IMG/VR virus record: IMGVR_UViG_2778261452_000004
Location: 1 to 20,333 of that record
From: a virus
Taxonomy: Duplodnaviria > Heunggongvirae > Uroviricota > Caudoviricetes
Length of the DNA stretch: 20,333 nt
Direction: 5' to 3' (one strand)
The position numbers and the translations under genes are program-made. Each line of letters opens with the position of its first letter. The stretch's first letter is position 1. This document shows, in pieces, positions 2,634 to 18,802 of the stretch. The notes under the pieces are model-generated. The model was not told the DNA's origin and made no database searches. It worked only from the letters and a program-made list of their open reading frames with translations.

Positions 2634-3377
2634 TTATTCTTGAGTAACACTTAAACTCATCTCATTGAATGCAGCCATCCTGTAACCTGCCGGTGTAACA
2701 CCAAAATAACTCCTGAATACGCTGATAAAATAAGATGTAAAATTATAGCCACACTGAGCAGCGATTCTGTTGATGGCGCAACGAGATTGATTCAACAGCA
2801 TTGCTGCCATTCTCATTCTCTCTGTAAGCAACAACTCACTGAAACAGGTGCCTTCTTCTTTCAGTCTTTTTTTTAACAAACTTTCACTGATACATAACCG
2901 CGAAGACACATCTCTCAGAGTCCAGTTTGCTGCAATGTCCGTACGAAACAATGCACTAAGCCTGTCACTAATATTGCCAATACACGCGGTCAGAAACGAC
3001 GAAAACATTTTCTCTGATGAGAAAAACGCCAGACACGAAAAGGAAAGCATTTCCGCTAAATTGTCCGTATGAATCTTTTCCTCACAAAGATAATCAATCA
3101 GGATGCCCATCAATTCTGCCTTCGGAAAACTCACGCAAAGATATCGTGGTATTTGCCGGACTAAAACTACATCCTGTTTTTCGTCTCCACACAACAGGTA
3201 ACGGCTAATTGTCGATTCACTGAGACTTATTCGCCGAAAACATTCCGAAAAGGGCAATAACGATCCAGCTCCCCCCCTGACAAGAAGTGCACTACCACTT
3301 TCAAGAGAGAGCTCTTTTCCTTCAAAGAGCACAACAAACGGGGAATGAACAAAAACAACAGAACAGGCTTCATTCAT
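2634..3377 (-). CDS. AraC/XylS-family transcriptional regulator (prophage moron), 247 aa
   Basis: C-terminal AraC-type HTH signature (…RIAAQCGYNFTSYFISVFRSYFGVTPAGYR). Track ORF 2634..3530 trimmed to ATG at 3377, because the upstream in-frame stretch contains a terminator hairpin and an AT-rich promoter-like segment. Confidence 0.8.
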   Translation of the reverse strand: MNEACSVVFVHSPFVVLFEGKELSLESGSALLVRGGAGSLLPFSECFRRISLSESTISRYLLCGDEKQDVVLVRQIPRYLCVSFPKAELMGILIDYLCEEKIHTDNLAEMLSFSCLAFFSSEKMFSSFLTACIGNISDRLSALFRTDIAANWTLRDVSSRLCISESLLKKRLKEEGTCFSELLLTERMRMAAMLLNQSRCAINRIAAQCGYNFTSYFISVFRSYFGVTPAGYRMAAFNEMSLSVTQE

Positions 3378-3499
3378 ATCAATTGCCCTGACATTACTGG
3401 TCACAAGATAAGTATATATCGATTTACAAAAATACAAGCCGAAAGACCAGTATTCGCAACCACCAGCACGTTTTATGTTCTCTGCCGTTTTTCGGACAT

Positions 3500-3521
3500 A
3501 AAAAACCCGCTCAATGGCGGG
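3500..3521 (-). terminator. Rho-independent terminator about 85 nt downstream of the Q-like gene (candidate tR')
   Basis: Minus strand reads cccgccattgagcggg followed by tttttt (plus strand 3501-3521: aaaaa cccgc tcaatg gcggg). Confidence 0.5.
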
Positions 3522-3606
3522 TTGTATCAAAGTTCATGCGCTTGGTTCACCTCGCGATACAGCTTTGCGAAGCTTAGCAAAATTGAAGCGGTTTATGCGT
3601 AAAAAA

Positions 3607-4149
3607 TCAAGCCGTTTTTTGAGCGAATGATTCTCGCATAGGAATGTATAGCGCATACTCAGCAACGGCCAACCAATTAGCAATTCGCTTTTCGCATGTG
3701 CTAAAACACCACTCTGGGTGTGCATCATTTAGCAATTCAGCCATTTTGCGTTTGGTCATCCCCCGCCCCTCATACCGTTGACGAAGGACGCTAATCAATC
3801 CTGGATGCTCTGCCAGCACCTCACTTATGACCCGATCAATACATAACGCCTCTGCATCAGTACAATGCGCCAGCCAGCTCTTTTGCTTACCGTTAATCAT
3901 ATCCCGCAAAAAAGCCTCAAGTTCAGACTTGTTCAGACCTGCTTTTTTCATCCTCCGGAGCGCCTCGTTAATTGCCGTTTTTGTCAGCTTTTTAGAGGCC
4001 AACAACTGGTTGAACATATTCCCCGTCTTACCGCCGCCAATATACGACCAGCGCCCCCACATGCGCAGTTTTCCCTGAATCCAGACACTTTCCAGCGTGG
4101 TGAGACGAAGGTGTTCCCCGCTTTTGCCTGTATTTGTTGGGTAAATCAT
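3607..4149 (-). CDS. Putative late-gene antiterminator Q, 180 aa
   Basis: Track ORF 3607..4269 trimmed to ATG at 4149, which overlaps the upstream stop as ATGA. Call rests mainly on position (last gene before terminator and lysis genes, after YbcO-like gene) plus a weak recollection of Q-like sequence; not verified. Confidence 0.5.
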   Translation of the reverse strand: MIYPTNTGKSGEHLRLTTLESVWIQGKLRMWGRWSYIGGGKTGNMFNQLLASKKLTKTAINEALRRMKKAGLNKSELEAFLRDMINGKQKSWLAHCTDAEALCIDRVISEVLAEHPGLISVLRQRYEGRGMTKRKMAELLNDAHPEWCFSTCEKRIANWLAVAEYALYIPMRESFAQKTA

Positions 4150-4436
4150 AAATAACCTTCCTTTCTCCAGATTTCTTGCGTGCGAAAAACACCTTCTGCA
4201 TGCATCAGGCGTAATTCTTCTTTGGTGTAATCGCTTGTTTTTACCCGCCCGTCGATTAAATCGTGGCACGAGCTACAGGCAATCGCTGCCTGCATATCGT
4301 GTGGCTTTATCGCCGTTCCGCACGTTCCCGCCAGTCGGTAATGCGCCAGCACAGACGTTTCGGGATTGTGATTGCAGTAGCCAGGAATTCTGACCTGGCA
4401 CATCTGGCCCCGCGCCGCTTTACGTAAATCCACCAT
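4146..4436 (-). CDS. YbcO-like DUF1364 protein (putative Zn-binding nuclease of the nin region), 96 aa
   Basis: Sequence (…LRKAARGQMCQVRIPGYCNHNPETSVLAHYRLAG…) matches my recollection of DLP12 YbcO; Cys/His-rich; start overlaps the upstream gene stop (TAATG). Confidence 0.75.
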   Translation of the reverse strand: MVDLRKAARGQMCQVRIPGYCNHNPETSVLAHYRLAGTCGTAIKPHDMQAAIACSSCHDLIDGRVKTSDYTKEELRLMHAEGVFRTQEIWRKEGYL

Positions 4437-5035
4437 TACGCAAACTCCAGTAGCTGCGCGGCCACATTTTCGACCTGTTCCGGAGAGGAAAATTTACGGA
4501 ACAGAATCCAGTTCCACAGCACATTCAGTACAGATTTATAAACCTGCTGAAACTCGGTTTCGTCCATATTCGCAAACGCGATGGATTTCGCCCTGCGCCC
4601 ACGGCTACCGTCCGGATAAATATGCTCGGTGTAAAATCCGGCCTGAATGGTTACCCACTCGCGGAAAGCCTCAAACGACATTAGCAATGCCGTATCACGG
4701 GTTCTGCGTGTCGCAACTGTATTCAGATATTGCTCTGCGGCTTCGCTCAGAGCTGGCGTATGTTCCCGGCCTACTGATTCACACAGGTAATCAACGAAAC
4801 CGGACACCAGTTTTCGTTCGCTAGGCGTGATCGCCCCACCGACCGGAGTCCAGTAATCGAAACCCAGTTGCAGGAGTTTGAAAAAACGCTTGTGGAATGC
4901 GTAGTTACGCACACGCTTAAAGTCTGCGTGTATCCACTCACCTATTTTGATTTGATGCAGAAAATCGCAACTCTCCGGCGTCGCCGGGAGAAGTAAACCA
5001 GAAGAAGTTTGTTTGACCAGTTGTATATGCGCCAT
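4436..5035 (-). CDS. Nin-region phage protein, DUF1367/YbcN-like, 199 aa
   Basis: Complete track ORF directly upstream of and translationally coupled to the YbcO-like gene; family assignment from memory only. Confidence 0.5.
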   Translation of the reverse strand: MAHIQLVKQTSSGLLLPATPESCDFLHQIKIGEWIHADFKRVRNYAFHKRFFKLLQLGFDYWTPVGGAITPSERKLVSGFVDYLCESVGREHTPALSEAAEQYLNTVATRRTRDTALLMSFEAFREWVTIQAGFYTEHIYPDGSRGRRAKSIAFANMDETEFQQVYKSVLNVLWNWILFRKFSSPEQVENVAAQLLEFA

Positions 5036-5308
5036 TTCTCAATCTCTCGATGGCGCAGTGCAGCAGATGCCAGTTGTTCAGGCCGACGTATAAAGTATAA
5101 ATAAACTGATTCCAGTGTAAAGCCCCCACATTGATGGAATAAAAACCAAACAACAGATTGCTGGGATAAAAACAACGCTTATTATTAAAAGCGGTTAAAC
5201 AAATTAAATTTTAATGTTATGCAAATCTACCAGATCACCATAATATCTCATTTGAAAACCACTGAAATAACAACCCTATCAGGATTAATCATATTAAGGT
5301 GAGTAAAT

Positions 5309-5395
5309 ATGGAAAACAACAAATCTGCACATTACGCTCCTTTTTTATCTGTAATACTTTTTGTTTTATGCTGTGCGTGGGCATTATTTTTATAA
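5309..5395 (+). CDS. Candidate small hydrophobic peptide, 28 aa (MENNKSAHYAPFLSVILFVLCCAWALFL)
   Basis: Not in the track (under 60 aa). Found by reading: ATG at 5309 with AAGGTGAG 5 nt upstream, stop TAA at 5393-5395; polar N-terminus then one 17-residue hydrophobic helix; AT-rich region beside hok. Confidence 0.3.
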   Translation: MENNKSAHYAPFLSVILFVLCCAWALFL

Positions 5396-5501
5396 AAATA
5401 TTTACAGATAAAATAAACCCGCCAAAGCTGGTTAAGTGTGGGTGCGTTGAGGATGCATAATACATCAGAGGTGGCGAGGGATTTCTCCCTCGCCCGGTCT
5501 C

Positions 5502-5657
5502 TTACTCCTCAGGTTCGTAAGCTGTGAAGACAGCGACCTCCGTCTGCCCGGTTCGGATTCGTACCTCGCAGAGGTCTTTCCTCGTTACCAGCGCCGTCAC
5601 AATGACGGTTAAACAGATGACGATCAGGGCGATTAACATCGCCTTTTGCTGCTTCAT
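5502..5657 (-). CDS. hok: Hok/Gef-family type I toxin, 51 aa
   Basis: MKQQKAMLIALIVICLTVIVTALVTRKDLCEVRIRTGQTEVAVFTAYEPEE matches HokD/Gef-type toxins as recalled. Track ORF 5502..5714 carries an in-frame 19-codon upstream extension; the canonical Hok start is ATG at 5657. Confidence 0.85.
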   Translation of the reverse strand: MKQQKAMLIALIVICLTVIVTALVTRKDLCEVRIRTGQTEVAVFTAYEPEE

Positions 5658-5830
5658 AGCCTGCTTCTCCTTGCCTTTCGACACGTAAGAGGCTAACCTA
5701 CATGTGCAAAGCATGAAATTGGCCTCAGATTAATGTTAAGCGTCTTGCCGGACGCGTAATGTTAACTGGGGCTTTTCTCTATCTGCCTTTTGGTGTTCAT
5801 GCCTGAGGCAGATAGCCTCAAGCACCCGCA
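5658..5830. promoter_or_regulatory. hok leader region; expected site of promoter, mok start and antisense Sok RNA (plus strand)
   Basis: Inference from the known hok/sok architecture; the region holds several hairpins (gcgtcttgccggacgc at about 5740-5755; atctgcct…aggcagat at about 5782-5816). Sok ends not determined. Confidence 0.3.
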
Positions 5831-6214
5831 GCAATTCTAACTATCCAATAGATCAATGCCAACTTCTTTTCCTGCAACATCTCTCATCATAAGTGACCGA
5901 AATTCATCCAATCAGCACAAAAGAAACATTTAAAGCGTGAATGCTACCGAACGTTCATTTCAATTACATCGTTTTGATTTTTAACAGTTTTCACCTCAAC
6001 AAATCAAATGGCATTAGCATTCATCATGGAAGAAAGACTGATAAAAATGATCATTTTCAATGACTTATGATCACACCGGGTATTGCCAAGTCATTCCTTT
6101 TACGCCAGGATACCCACAAGTGAGTAGTCGAGGAGAATTTGCCAATTTTTGCGAAATAAATTTCAATGTCCGAAGAACCATTAATTGTTAATTGATTCTG
6201 TATAAGGTATTAAC

Positions 6215-7312
6215 ATGACAATTTCATATATTCCTATTCTGAAAGCGAAACGTTCTGAGTTATCAGCTTTATCGCAGCTATCCATTGAAAAGAAATCAAA
6301 AATTTTGCCATTACTCGAAATTGAACCAGTGCCAATTGACCCTGATTCAGGTATTGCCTTAAAGAGTTATAACGAGACTCTTATAGAGTTCGGAAAGAAA
6401 GTCTCAAAATCTTGCTCAGATATGCAAGGTGTTTATATTGATGGATTATTAATTGAAGAGCATTTTATTTCTCCTGAAGATCATTACCCTATAATAAATG
6501 CGGTTAATCAAGTTAGAGATATGGGGATAAGAGTTATTCCTGTCAGTTCACCAACTCGCCCATCTAACTATAAAAGAGCGATTGATGAATTAATGCAGAA
6601 TGAAATATGCTTGAGATTAACCACGTTAGATCTGGTTAACCCACAATTAATAACGCATTACATTAATCATCTGGGAATTCCTTTATCAAATATTGATATA
6701 ATTATTGACTTAAGAGATGAGTTAACCGAGGATAAACTTAATTCCGGCGAACTATATACTTTGGCAATGGGATTGATAAACAATCTGGCGCACCTCAATG
6801 AATACAGAAAAGTGATTCTTTCTGGGGGTTCATTTCCTACAGATCTCAGTGATATTTCTGTTGGTCTATATTCTCAACCTCGAATCGAGTGGATTTTATG
6901 GCAGAGTTTAATGAATAGAAAAGAACTTGCCAGAAATGTGATTTATAGTGATTATGGAGTACAGCACCCCGACTTTAATAGGCTTTCGACGCGATTCCCT
7001 AGCGTATCTGCCAGCGTCAGATACTCTGGAGATAATGACTTTTGGGTATTTCGAGGAAGAGTAGCTAATCGCTTTGGTTATGAACAATATGGTAAACATA
7101 GTGAGGATATTCTTGCTCATCGAGAATATTCAGGGCCTACATTCTGTGCGGGAGATAGAGACATAGAATATTATGCAAACGAGTATCAAGCCTACAAAGC
7201 CAATCCCTCTGGTAACTATAAATTTGGTAGCCCAGAGGTATGGCGTAGGATTGGGCAAAACCATCACATAACTAAGGTTGTTGAGCAACTCGCCACTCTT
7301 TACGGGCTTTAA
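6215..7312 (+). CDS. 'Beta protein'/sce7725-family protein, 365 aa; candidate defence-module component
   Basis: Complete track ORF with AAGG ribosome-binding site; strongly AT-rich, A/T-ending codons unlike the flanking phage genes; N-terminus MTISYIPILKAKRSELSAL resembles the Beta_protein family as recalled (unverified). Confidence 0.8.
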   Translation: MTISYIPILKAKRSELSALSQLSIEKKSKILPLLEIEPVPIDPDSGIALKSYNETLIEFGKKVSKSCSDMQGVYIDGLLIEEHFISPEDHYPIINAVNQVRDMGIRVIPVSSPTRPSNYKRAIDELMQNEICLRLTTLDLVNPQLITHYINHLGIPLSNIDIIIDLRDELTEDKLNSGELYTLAMGLINNLAHLNEYRKVILSGGSFPTDLSDISVGLYSQPRIEWILWQSLMNRKELARNVIYSDYGVQHPDFNRLSTRFPSVSASVRYSGDNDFWVFRGRVANRFGYEQYGKHSEDILAHREYSGPTFCAGDRDIEYYANEYQAYKANPSGNYKFGSPEVWRRIGQNHHITKVVEQLATLYGL

Positions 7313-7850
7313 GTTTAACTCGAACAGCTTCACGAAGCTCGCCAACATCCATACTATTGGCGAGTTTTGACCATAAGACGCGTTTAGGTTTATTTTTCAA
7401 ATTCTGTAGCTCCCCTGCATCACTTAATAGGGAAAGCAATTCATCTTTCCAAAGAAGCATTGTTAAGGAAAGTTTGTCCACTTGTGGATTCAACTTGCTA
7501 GTTCGAATTGTTTTTAAATGGATACCTTGCCGTGCACCTTGCGTAACTTGCTTTATCCCCCACCATGATGGAACTATGCTTAAAGCATCATAAAGATGGC
7601 AATCAGAGACAACCAACGTTACTTTATCCATCACAGATGAGTAATGTTGCACCTGCGCTGGTAATCTGAGCAAGTTATCACTCTTGCTCTTCAACTCATA
7701 ACCATGTATAAGCCCATTGATCACTGCTATATCAGCTCTGCTAGCCCCTAGATTCATCGTAAACTCATCAATGATTAGGGTGTCAGGATCTTTATGATGA
7801 TCTCTCAGAATCTTGGCATGCACAGCCTTTCTTACATCAATGTCTCTCAT
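7272..7850 (-). CDS. sce7726-like protein with PD-(D/E)xK nuclease-like motif, 192 aa; candidate partner of the beta-like gene
   Basis: Complete track ORF convergent with the beta-like gene and overlapping it by 41 bp at the 3' ends; motif IIDEF…RADIAVINGLIHGYELKSK (D40, E52-x-K54) fits a restriction-endonuclease-like core. Confidence 0.8.
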   Translation of the reverse strand: MRDIDVRKAVHAKILRDHHKDPDTLIIDEFTMNLGASRADIAVINGLIHGYELKSKSDNLLRLPAQVQHYSSVMDKVTLVVSDCHLYDALSIVPSWWGIKQVTQGARQGIHLKTIRTSKLNPQVDKLSLTMLLWKDELLSLLSDAGELQNLKNKPKRVLWSKLANSMDVGELREAVRVKLKARKEWRVAQQP

Positions 7851-8155
7851 ACCATAGTTGCGCTTTCATCGACTCTCTCAAGCCATGATTCTATATCATG
7901 GTTCGCATGAATGCCATTTGATATGACCAGTGGTTAAACATTGCACAGAAAAGTAGATGTGTATTTTAACAAAAGCAATGACGGCTAACCATGTTGGTAT
8001 GTCGATAAAATGTTTCAACGTAAGCATTATCTGTTCCGCCCTTTCAGACGGCCTCCTGATGTTCTGAGGGTGCAGAATCCCTCCGGTTAAGGATTTAATA
8101 AAAATCGTTTCTGATTTAAATCTTCAGTATTTAGTTGTTAGTCGGTTTATAGCCT

Positions 8156-18349: not shown

Positions 18350-18405
18350 TTCAGCCTGGCGGTGTAATGCACCGCCAACTTGAAATATTTTTTATGAGAA
18401 AAATT

Positions 18406-18600
18406 ATGAGATATGACAATGTTAAACCATGTCCATTTTGTGGTTGTCCATCAGTAACGGTGAAAGCCATTTCAGGATATTACCGAGCGAAGTGTAACGG
18501 ATGCGAATCCCGAACCGGTTATGGTGGAAGTGAAAAAGAAGCACTCGAAAGATGGAATAAACGAACCACTGGAAATAATAATGGAGGTGTTCATGTATAA
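18406..18600 (+). CDS. ralR: Restriction alleviation protein RalR (Lar), 64 aa
   Basis: MRYDNVKPCPFCGCPSVTVKAISGYYRAKCNGCESRTGYGGSEKEALERWNKRTTGNNNGGVHV recognised as Rac Lar; Cys4 zinc ribbon; track ORF 18367..18600 trimmed to ATG at 18406. Confidence 0.9.
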   Translation: MRYDNVKPCPFCGCPSVTVKAISGYYRAKCNGCESRTGYGGSEKEALERWNKRTTGNNNGGVHV

Positions 18601-18802
18601 AATTACCGCCACTATTGAAAAGGAAGGTGGCACTCCTACTAACTGGACAAGATATTCAAAATCTAAACTAACGAAATCAGAATGCGAAAAAATGCTCTCA
18701 GGTAAAAAAGAAGCAGGCGTTTCCAGAGAGCAGAAAGTAAAACTGATAAATTTTAATTGCGAGAAACTTCAGTCCTCGAGAATTGCATTGTATTCAAATT
18801 AA
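18593..18802 (+). CDS. ydaC: YdaC-like small protein, 69 aa
   Basis: Track ORF 18521..18802 trimmed to ATG at 18593 (GGAGGTG 6 nt upstream), overlapping the ralR stop. Confidence 0.75.
   Translation: MYKITATIEKEGGTPTNWTRYSKSKLTKSECEKMLSGKKEAGVSREQKVKLINFNCEKLQSSRIALYSN

What the first reader, a model, noticed from the sequence alone, without database searches (positions are those of the whole stretch)
5502..5830. hok type I toxin locus carried on the prophage island
The 51-aa product is a clear Hok/Gef-family toxin. Downstream of the stop on the minus strand there is a strong hairpin (gggcgagggagaaatccctcgcc) consistent with the stable 3' fold of hok mRNAs, and the leader region holds several stem-loops where mok and Sok elements are expected. 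Here hok is stand-alone and lies beside candidate defence genes; Hok systems are known from plasmid post-segregational killing, and a phage-exclusion role is plausible but unproven for this locus. An in-frame ATG 19 codons upstream (5714) extends the ORF; whether a mok-type reading frame exists was not resolved.
Basis: partly seen in the sequence, partly recalled or inferred. Interest (0 to 1): 0.5.

Follow-up and report, generated by a model that had tools for sequence, protein, structure and literature searches.

The report
Complete hok/mok/sok toxin–antitoxin locus in prophage
This is an ordinary, already well-known type I toxin–antitoxin module (the full-length form of E. coli hokD, close kin of hokW-sokW) carried by a Rac-like lambdoid prophage, with every expected regulatory element present.

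Summary
Window 5502-5657 (-) encodes a 51-aa Hok toxin (Pfam HOK_GEF, E 1e-23) with the same sequence as K-12 HokD. The leader 5827-5652 (-) matches Rfam RF01794 at 118 bits.

The full module spans about 5410-5862, wider than reported. It contains:
- a hok promoter (TTGGCA-17-TAGAAT);
- a 5' tac element that pairs with a 3' fbi element (-21.5 kcal/mol, with compensatory changes across 33 loci);
- a hok terminator hairpin that is weaker in this allele.

The open mok question is settled. The ATG at 5714 aligns exactly with the annotated mokC start and is in frame with hok, as in mokC/hokC and in phage Rac-SA53.

Sok is placed by homology to the annotated SokC. It lies on the + strand at about 5706-5782, behind a TTGCCT-17-TAACCT promoter. 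It covers the mok ribosome-binding site and start codon.

The locus is 98.9% identical to the annotated mok/hok of inducible phage Rac-SA53 and collinear with the experimentally validated hokW-sokW of Sakai prophage 5. Loci covering at least 80% of it occur in about 3800 of 5426 complete E. coli genomes.

Verdict: already known, probably intact, low interest. Its biological role here is untested.

The parts
5834..5862 (-). hok/mok mRNA promoter: -35 TTGGCA (5862-5857), 17-nt spacer, -10 TAGAAT (5839-5834). Predicted start is G at 5827.
   Evidence: It is the only sigma-70-like site found in 5350-5950, with 10 of 12 matches. The -10 element and start align with hokW, hokC and Rac-SA53. The Rfam model begins at 5827.
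5816..5827 (-). tac element (GGGUGCUUGAGG), the 5' end of hok mRNA. It pairs with fbi in the full-length RNA and with ucb (5774-5768) in the Rfam leader structure.
   Evidence: The MFE fold of the 415-nt RNA pairs nt 1-11 with the fbi. The duplex is -21.5 kcal/mol against -10.3 +/- 2.6 for shuffled partners. Helix 1 is 93% paired with 3 compensatory pairs. The tac-ucb helix is in the Rfam alignment.
5723..5768 (-). Sok-target hairpin in the hok leader, ending in the mok Shine-Dalgarno GAGG (5726-5723). Its apex carries an 18-nt extension (ACGCGUCCGGCAAGACGC) relative to hokC.
   Evidence: Rfam shows the extension as an insertion in the hairpin loop. Helix 5 is 91% paired with 6 compensatory pairs, and 14 of 33 loci carry the extension.
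5502..5714 (-). mok reading frame, 70 codons, ATG at 5714, in frame with hok and sharing its stop codon.
   Evidence: The ORF is listed. Its ATG aligns with the annotated K-12 mokC ATG. The identical layout is annotated as mok/hok in phage Rac-SA53. It is 91% identical to Sp5 ECs_1245. The ATG is conserved in 31 of 33 loci.
5502..5657 (-). hok toxin gene, 51 aa, with Shine-Dalgarno GGAG at 5670-5667. Codon 47 TAC plus G (5519-5516) forms the TACG editing motif.
   Evidence: Pfam HOK_GEF E 1.2e-23. The protein is identical to K-12 HokD. RefSeq annotates the matching loci as hokD.
5671..5699 (+). Predicted Sok promoter: -35 TTGCCT (5671-5676), 17-nt spacer, -10 TAACCT (5694-5699).
   Evidence: It is positionally homologous to the promoter upstream of annotated K-12 sokC. 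Both hexamers are identical in the validated Sp5 hokW-sokW locus and conserved across 33 loci. It falls below the consensus-scan threshold, with 3 of 6 matches in the -10.
5706..5782 (+). Predicted Sok antisense RNA, about 77 nt: a 9-nt single-stranded 5' tail, a long hairpin (5715-5777) and a U-rich tail. It is complementary to the mok SD and AUG.
   Evidence: The ends were transferred from annotated SokC, a 59-nt RNA at L002 653-711. It folds at -30.2 kcal/mol, z -5.0, with the same architecture as SokC. sokW is reported to have 71 nt of complementarity to the hokW 5' UTR (PMC8621323).
5473..5495 (-). Conserved 3' UTR stem-loop just after the hok stop codon (GGCGAGGGA-GAAA-UCCCUCGCC).
   Evidence: -14.9 kcal/mol, z -3.4. 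Helix 16 is 94% paired across 33 loci.
5440..5452 (-). fbi (fold-back inhibition) element CCUCAACGCACCC, complementary to tac.
   Evidence: The covariation is direct: tac U4 to C changes together with fbi A to G in 9 loci.
5410..5433 (-). hok mRNA terminator hairpin plus U tract (AACCAGCUUUGGCGGGUUUAUUUU). This is a minority allele with an A.G mismatch in the stem (5429 A and 5424 T, where the common allele has C and C).
   Evidence: -5.6 kcal/mol against -11.8 for the common CCCGCUUCGGCGGG. It is not called by the terminator scan. The exact allele occurs in 17 of about 4130 matching records.

Best explanation
The region about 5410-5862 is a complete hok/mok/sok type I toxin-antitoxin module of the hokD/hokW lineage. 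It sits in the early-right region of a Rac-like lambdoid prophage, between the replication and moron genes and the nin/Q genes.

Mechanism, inferred by homology to R1 hok/sok, hokC/sokC and hokW/sokW:
1. A constitutive promoter at 5862-5834 makes a stable mRNA of about 415 nt.
2. The 5' tac element of that mRNA pairs with the 3' fbi element. The full-length RNA is therefore closed, untranslatable and unable to bind Sok.
3. Slow 3' trimming removes the terminator and fbi. The leader then refolds and exposes the mok ribosome-binding site.
4. Translation of mok (ATG 5714, in frame with hok) is needed for translation of hok (ATG 5657).
5. A short unstable antisense RNA, Sok (+ strand, about 5706-5782), pairs across the mok SD and AUG. 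This blocks mok and hence hok translation, and the duplex is cut by RNase III.
6. When Sok supply falls, the pool of processed mRNA is translated and the 51-aa Hok peptide depolarises the inner membrane. Possible triggers are loss of the element, a transcription shut-off, or prophage induction with rightward read-through opposing Sok transcription.

Shown here by sequence analysis: every sequence element, their conservation and covariation, and identity with annotated or validated loci. Inferred only: transcription, processing, toxicity in this host, and the biological role.
For: - Toxin: Pfam HOK_GEF E 1.2e-23, and the protein is identical to HokD.
- Leader: Rfam RF01794 full-length hit, 118 bits, E 8e-27.
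- hok promoter: 10 of 12 consensus matches.
- tac-fbi: present in the MFE fold (z -6.4). The duplex is -21.5 kcal/mol, and 33 of 33 homologous loci keep it despite sequence change.
- Whole structure: 83.5% of cells paired against 39-45% when partners are slid. 40 pairs carry compensatory changes, against 15-24 in the slid controls.
- mok: the ATG aligns with annotated mokC and with mok as annotated in phage Rac-SA53.
- Sok: promoter hexamers, hairpin and U-tail are collinear with annotated SokC and identical in the hexamers to Sp5 hokW-sokW. That locus was shown to be toxic and Sok-suppressed (PMC8621323).
- Similarity: 98.9% identical to Rac-SA53 over window 5440-8015.
- Selection: only synonymous differences from K-12 hokD in the coding sequence.
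Against: - No expression data exist for this locus.
- The Sok -10 hexamer (TAACCT) matches only 3 of 6 consensus positions and is not called by the scan.
- The hok terminator hairpin is weakened in this allele (-5.6 against -11.8 kcal/mol). The 3' end, and hence the processing kinetics, may differ.
- The thermodynamic fold of a 3'-truncated RNA gave the 5' metastable hairpin rather than tac-ucb pairing.
- The ucb-dcb helix is only 59% paired in my alignment (helix 4).
- Chromosomal hok loci tested earlier did not mediate post-segregational killing (Pedersen & Gerdes 1999, as summarised).
Confidence: 0.9

Rival explanations
1. A decayed relic. The sequence is hok/sok by descent but no longer works as a toxin-antitoxin pair, like the K-12 chromosomal hok loci inactivated by IS elements or rearrangement.
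For: - The terminator hairpin carries two substitutions that halve its stability. Six substitutions cluster in the last 60 nt of the mRNA.
- The Sok -10 hexamer is weak.
- The literature reports that most chromosomal hok loci are inactive or do not give post-segregational killing.
Against: - No IS element, frameshift or deletion is present.
- The hok promoter, tac, fbi, mok ORF, Sok promoter, Sok hairpin and Hok ORF are all intact. They are collinear with the functional Sp5 hokW-sokW and with inducible phage Rac-SA53.
- The tac-fbi duplex energy equals that of the other loci.
- Truly decayed copies look different. L007 has lost tac, and L045 and L049 have broken Hok ORFs.
Confidence: 0.1
2. 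Role: a helper of prophage lysis and release. On SOS induction Sok falls, Hok is made and weakens the inner membrane, which speeds phage release as reported for hokW-sokW of Sp5.
For: - The Sp5 locus is collinear with this one, and Mok-Hok is 91% identical.
- For Sp5, mitomycin C lowered sokW, raised HokW, and deleting the locus halved the phage released (PMC8621323).
- Here hok is co-directional with the early-right operon leading to Q (3607-4269 -). Induced read-through would therefore oppose Sok transcription. That step is inference from the gene order.
Against: - The Sp5 locus sits at the opposite end of its prophage, near attR, so the transcriptional context differs.
- The reported effect was only two-fold.
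- It is not known whether this prophage is inducible.
Confidence: 0.35
3. Role: addiction or anti-phage abortive infection. The module either stabilises the prophage by killing cells that lose it, or kills cells whose transcription is shut off by an infecting lytic phage, as R1 hok/sok does with T4.
For: - The mechanism (stable toxin mRNA, labile antisense) fits both roles.
- hok genes are about four-fold enriched in prophages.
- R1 hok/sok is credited with plasmid maintenance and phage defence (cited in PMC8621323).
- The neighbours match candidate defence families.
Against: - Chromosomal hok loci tested did not give post-segregational killing.
- hok is not enriched next to defence systems.
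- PADLOC has no model hit for this Hok.
- Nothing was tested for this locus.
Confidence: 0.35

Closest known systems
mok/hok of Escherichia phage Rac-SA53 (KU052037.1)
   Same: 98.9% DNA identity over window 5440-8015. The gene order is the same: cII-like/sce7726, beta, mok/hok, then rem, DUF1367 (irsA), ybcO, Q. mok is annotated as a 70-codon frame sharing its stop codon with hok.
   Different: Similarity ends right after the fbi element. Rac-SA53 has a different sequence where the window has its terminator. Its Hok differs at two residues (V41I, A46V).
hokW-sokW of Sakai prophage 5 (E. coli O157:H7), experimentally validated
   Same: Collinear from the hok -10 element to the fbi element. Both Sok promoter hexamers, the extended Sok hairpin and the U-tail are identical. 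Mok-Hok is 64/70 identical and the toxin is 51 aa. Toxicity, Sok suppression, and partial RNase III and Hfq dependence are shown in PMC8621323.
   Different: It lies at the attR end of its prophage, not between the replication and Q modules. The Hok C-terminus is VFVDYESEK rather than VFTAYEPEE. The Sok 5' tail differs at a few bases, and the 3' end after fbi is unrelated.
hokD (relF) of the K-12 Qin prophage
   Same: The Hok protein is identical. The 3' UTR hairpin, fbi and terminator region are homologous. The position relative to the nin/Q module (rem, DUF968/ydfU, Q) is the same.
   Different: K-12 hokD lacks everything upstream of the hok SD: promoter, tac, Sok target, mok start, and the Sok -10 and start. 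relBE abuts it instead. The window holds the complete form.
hokC/mokC/sokC (gef) of E. coli K-12
   Same: The leader architecture is the same, mok is in frame, and the mok ATG, Sok promoter and Sok 5' end align.
   Different: Hok is about 82% identical. SokC lacks the 18-nt hairpin extension (59 nt against about 77 nt). The K-12 copy is cut by IS186 about 20 bp after the stop codon, so it has no fbi.
hok/sok of plasmid R1 (paradigm)
   Same: The element order is the same: promoter, tac, Sok target, mok, hok, 3' hairpin, fbi, terminator. tac-fbi pairing and Sok promoter placement are also shared.
   Different: Hok is only about 44% identical, the value reported for HokW against Hok. It is plasmid-borne, and its leader hairpins differ in length.

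Membership tests
[quoted passage not shown] | Small (about 50 aa) hydrophobic Hok/Gef toxin | tested here: met
   Pfam PF01848, E 1.2e-23, 82.9 bits against a cutoff of 22, covering profile positions 1-42 of 42.
[quoted passage not shown] | Structured hok mRNA leader of the family | tested here: met
   Rfam RF01794 model positions 1-157 of 157, 118.3 bits against a gathering score of 59. The hit is on the hok-sense strand and ends at the hok AUG.
[quoted passage not shown] | Upstream overlapping mok reading frame with its own SD | tested here: met
   GAGG at 5726-5723, then 8 nt, then ATG at 5714. The 70-codon ORF aligns with annotated mokC. The ATG is conserved in 31 of 33 loci.
[quoted passage not shown] | Cis-encoded antisense Sok gene (promoter, 5' tail, hairpin, U-tail) opposite the mok translation start | tested here: met
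   TTGCCT-17-TAACCT at 5671-5699. The RNA is about 5706-5782 and folds at -30.2 kcal/mol, z -5.0. It is collinear with annotated SokC and with the validated sokW locus. This is met at the sequence level only.
[quoted passage not shown] | 5' tac to 3' fbi end-pairing of the full-length mRNA | tested here: met
   Present in the MFE fold. The duplex is -21.5 kcal/mol against -10.3 +/- 2.6 for shuffles. 93% of cells are paired, with compensatory changes.
[quoted passage not shown] | ucb-dcb pairing and refolding to tac-ucb after 3' processing | tested here: inconclusive
   The tac-ucb helix is present in the Rfam alignment, but its columns are invariant. The ucb-dcb-like helix 4 is only 59% paired. 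The truncated RNA's MFE shows the 5' metastable hairpin instead.
[quoted passage not shown] | Toxicity of Hok, suppression by Sok, RNase III cleavage, 3' processing | not testable with these tools
   These need experiments. They have been shown for the 91%-identical Sp5 locus (PMC8621323).
K-12-type hokD/relF (relBEF operon) | hok preceded directly by relBE, with no mok, Sok or leader | tested here: not met
   The window has a full leader where K-12 has relE (alignment A1; annotation). The shared 'hokD' label reflects only the identical protein.
PD-Lambda-2 defence system (considered for the neighbours only) | Three-gene system A, B and C | tested here: not met
   Only a PD-Lambda-2_C-like Beta protein (E 1.4e-41) is present. 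The partner matches 'cll'/sce7726, and no A or B hits were found among the neighbours tested.

The most novel reading that the evidence does not exclude
The rare 3' allele of this locus weakens the terminator hairpin and alters the hairpin before fbi. This could change where hok mRNA ends and how fast it is activated. With the adjacent Beta/sce7726 pair, the module might then act as a prophage-encoded abortive-infection or lysis-timing island, with kinetics different from the common hokD/hokW alleles.
Probability: 0.07. Interest if true: 0.35.

Novelty: already known. Interest (0 to 1): 0.1.

Why it matters
It matters little beyond correct annotation. The locus shows what the complete hokD-type module looks like, in contrast to the relBE-truncated K-12 copy, with coordinates for mok, Sok, tac and fbi that automated annotation omits (RefSeq marks only hokD). 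It adds one more prophage carrying a hok/sok module next to candidate defence genes. It could serve as a natural allele for testing how terminator strength affects hok mRNA activation.

Tried and rejected
- The consensus promoter and terminator scan found neither the Sok promoter nor the hok terminator. Both were placed by homology instead, and both are weak matches.
- Folding a 3'-truncated mRNA to recover the tac-ucb 'active' conformation failed. The MFE gave the 5' metastable hairpin.
- The ucb-dcb helix taken from the window's MFE is poorly conserved in alignment A2 (59% paired), so I make no claim on it.
- MAFFT misaligns the distal half of fbi in Photorhabdus loci, which lack the bulge. 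Per-sequence duplex folding was therefore used for tac-fbi.
- I looked for hokW in Sp5 near Q and near int. It is at the attR end.
- PADLOC has no hit for Hok itself.
- NCBIfam Hok models score below their cutoffs, so the family call rests on Pfam.
- I considered that the window might be an exact copy of a complete E. coli genome. The best match for the 521-nt locus is 97.9% identical, and the best for the whole window covers 68%.
- The 58-aa ORF at 5289-5465 (-) overlaps the 3' UTR. I treated it as spurious and did not test it.

Full report
**Observation**

The window has a 70-codon ORF at 5502-5714 on the minus strand. Its last 51 codons, from the ATG at 5657, give MKQQKAMLIALIVICLTVIVTALVTRKDLCEVRIRTGQTEVAVFTAYEPEE. 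Pfam HOK_GEF matches this at E 1.2e-23 over the whole profile. The peptide is letter-for-letter the K-12 HokD (RelF) protein. The three nucleotide differences from K-12 hokD in the coding region are all synonymous.

It folds at -14.9 kcal/mol, z -3.4, and is conserved with compensatory changes (helix 16).

An Rfam scan of the whole window gives two hits above gathering score. One is RalA at 18599-18777. The other is RF01794 'sok' at 5827-5652, minus strand, 118 bits, E 8e-27, covering model positions 1-157 of 157. That hit is on the hok-sense strand and its 3' end aligns to the hok AUG. It therefore certifies the hok leader. The Sok gene is the reverse complement of part of it.

**Anatomy**

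The only sigma-70-like site in 5350-5950 is TTGGCA-17-TAGAAT at 5862-5834 (-), with 10 of 12 matches. It places the start at G 5827, where the Rfam model begins.

Aligning the locus with K-12 hokC/mokC/sokC, K-12 hokD and a RefSeq hokD locus gives three results:
- The window's leader is homologous to the hokC leader throughout.
- The ATG at 5714 aligns exactly with the annotated mokC ATG.
- K-12 hokD aligns only from the hok Shine-Dalgarno onward, because relE abuts it.

The window therefore carries the complete form of the hokD lineage.

mok here is in frame with hok and shares its stop codon. The same is true of annotated mokC, of mok/hok in phage Rac-SA53 and of ECs_1245 in Sakai prophage 5. 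Across 33 related loci the mok ATG is conserved in 31. It is in frame in 22 (distance 57 nt), in the +1 frame in 8 (58 nt), and opens a short ORF in 2. This fits the view that the act of translating mok matters rather than its product.

**Sok**

K-12 sokC is annotated at L002 653-711. Transferring its ends through the alignment of the + strands gives these elements in the window:
- -35 TTGCCT at 5671-5676, a 17-nt spacer, and -10 TAACCT at 5694-5699;
- a start at G 5706;
- an end in GGGGCUUUUCUCUAU at 5782.

The resulting 77-nt RNA has a 9-nt free 5' tail, a long hairpin and a U-rich tail. It folds at -30.2 kcal/mol, z -5.0, with the same architecture as SokC. It is complementary to the mok SD (5726-5723) and AUG (5714-5712).

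It is 18 nt longer than SokC because the hairpin apex carries a self-complementary extension. The extension is shared by 14 of the 33 loci and kept paired.

The -10 hexamer is weak and is not called by the scan. However, both hexamers are identical in the Sp5 hokW-sokW locus, where a promoter-less mutant unmasked toxicity (PMC8621323). That paper reports 71 nt of sokW complementarity to the hokW 5' UTR, close to my estimate.

**mRNA end-pairing**

The 415-nt RNA from 5827 to 5413 folds at -164 kcal/mol, z -6.4. Nucleotides 1-11 (tac, GGGUGCUUGAG) pair with CUCAACGCACCC (fbi, 5452-5440).

I collected Hok relatives from one genome per species and aligned 33 loci from the start site to fbi. Every locus keeps a 5'-3' duplex of -17 to -26 kcal/mol, against about -10 for shuffled partners. 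The covariation is direct: tac U4 to C goes with fbi A to G in 9 loci.

Projecting the window's MFE structure onto the alignment gives 83.5% paired cells, against 39-45% when partners are slid. It gives 40 pairs with changes on both sides, against 15-24 in the slid controls. The structure came from one of the aligned sequences, which favours it somewhat on the paired-cells measure.

Two parts of the published folding pathway could not be confirmed:
- The ucb-dcb-like helix is only 59% paired.
- A truncated RNA folded into the 5' metastable hairpin rather than tac-ucb.

**A peculiarity**

The last 60 nt of the mRNA carry six substitutions relative to the common allele. Two of them turn the terminator CCCGCUUCGGCGGG into CCAGCUUUGGCGGG. 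This lowers the hairpin from -11.8 to -5.6 kcal/mol, and the scan calls no terminator.

This exact allele is found in 17 of about 4130 matching E. coli records. It is therefore a circulating minority variant and not a sequencing error. The fbi itself is unaffected.

**Context**

The window is a Rac-like lambdoid prophage, with:
- intR, recE/recT and RalA at the right end;
- a cI/cro-type region and replication genes in the middle;
- then, on the minus strand, sce7726, (Beta on the plus strand), mok/hok, DUF1367, YbcO, Q, an AraC-like gene and lysis genes.

Inducible phage Rac-SA53 has the same order and is 98.9% identical over window 5440-8015. The similarity stops at the end of fbi. K-12 Qin has hokD in the equivalent slot before rem, ydfU and Q.

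The divergent neighbour is a Beta protein (PADLOC PD-Lambda-2_C, E 1e-41). Its convergent partner is an sce7726/'cll' protein. 'Beside candidate defence genes' is therefore literally true. A survey nevertheless found hok enriched in prophages but not near defence systems.

**How common**

The 521-nt locus has a match in 4727 of 5426 complete E. coli genomes. In 3804 genomes the match covers at least 80% of it, and these are annotated hokD. It also matches 79 phage records, some annotated mok/hok or MokW. The Sp5 locus hokW-sokW has been shown to be a working toxin-antitoxin pair that aids phage release (PMC8621323). It is collinear with the window's locus from the -10 element to fbi, and Mok-Hok is 64/70 identical.

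**Verdict**

The locus is a complete and probably functional member of a thoroughly described family, nearly identical to annotated and validated copies. Nothing about it would surprise a specialist. The weakened terminator allele and the neighbouring Beta/sce7726 pair are the only loose ends. Function in this host, and the role of the locus (lysis helper, prophage addiction or abortive infection), remain inference.

Noticed in passing
window 18599-18777 (-), with ORF 18367-18600 (+): [quoted passage not shown] The RalA antitoxin sRNA matches Rfam RF02694 at 225 bits, E 3.5e-54, full length. It abuts an ORF in the ralR position.
   Followed up: no
window 6215-7312 (+) and 7272-7850 (-): A Beta-family protein (Pfam PF14350, E 2e-52; PADLOC PD-Lambda-2_C, E 1e-41) and an sce7726/'cll' protein (NCBIfam NF033832, E 3e-56) are convergent and overlap by 41 nt at their 3' ends. 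They are divergent from hok. The same trio occurs in phage Rac-SA53 and in E. coli 2013C-3264. No PD-Lambda-2 A or B partners were seen.
   Followed up: partly
window 5516-5519 (-), hok codon 47: The Tyr47 codon TAC followed by G forms TACG, and TACGAA is invariant in all 33 aligned hok loci. The literature reports TadA A-to-I editing (Tyr to Cys) at the equivalent site of K-12 hokC, hokD and hokE, at 6% for hokD (PMC12214031).
   Followed up: partly
window about 5440: Near-identity to phage Rac-SA53 (98.9%) ends exactly at the 3' end of the fbi element. The downstream module (3596-5100) is only 84% identical. A lambdoid mosaic joint therefore coincides with the end of the functional hok mRNA. 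Sp5 and Rac-SA53 each have unrelated sequence after fbi.
   Followed up: partly
window 5410-5470 (-): Six substitutions cluster in the hok 3' UTR relative to the common allele, two of them in the terminator stem-loop (-5.6 against -11.8 kcal/mol). The identical allele is in 17 complete E. coli genomes.
   Followed up: partly
L029 (Kluyvera sp. CHPC 1.2972) against L008 (K-12-like E. coli): The relBE-hok junction known from K-12 Qin also occurs in a Kluyvera genome. The relBE part is 94-99% identical to E. coli, but the hok part is only 69-75% identical. The relBEF arrangement is therefore not a K-12 oddity and has recombined within or next to hok.
   Followed up: partly
window 2634-3530 (-): An AraC-family regulator with its best NCBIfam similarity to YdeO (E 8e-43, below the cutoff) sits just downstream of the Q antiterminator gene (3607-4269). 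It looks like prophage cargo.
   Followed up: no
L030 (Enterobacteriaceae bacterium MGYG-HGUT-00110), positions 6-354 and 521-918: Two tandem copies of the hok locus lie about 500 nt apart in one genome. L007, L045 and L049 show decayed copies, with tac deleted or the Hok ORF broken.
   Followed up: no
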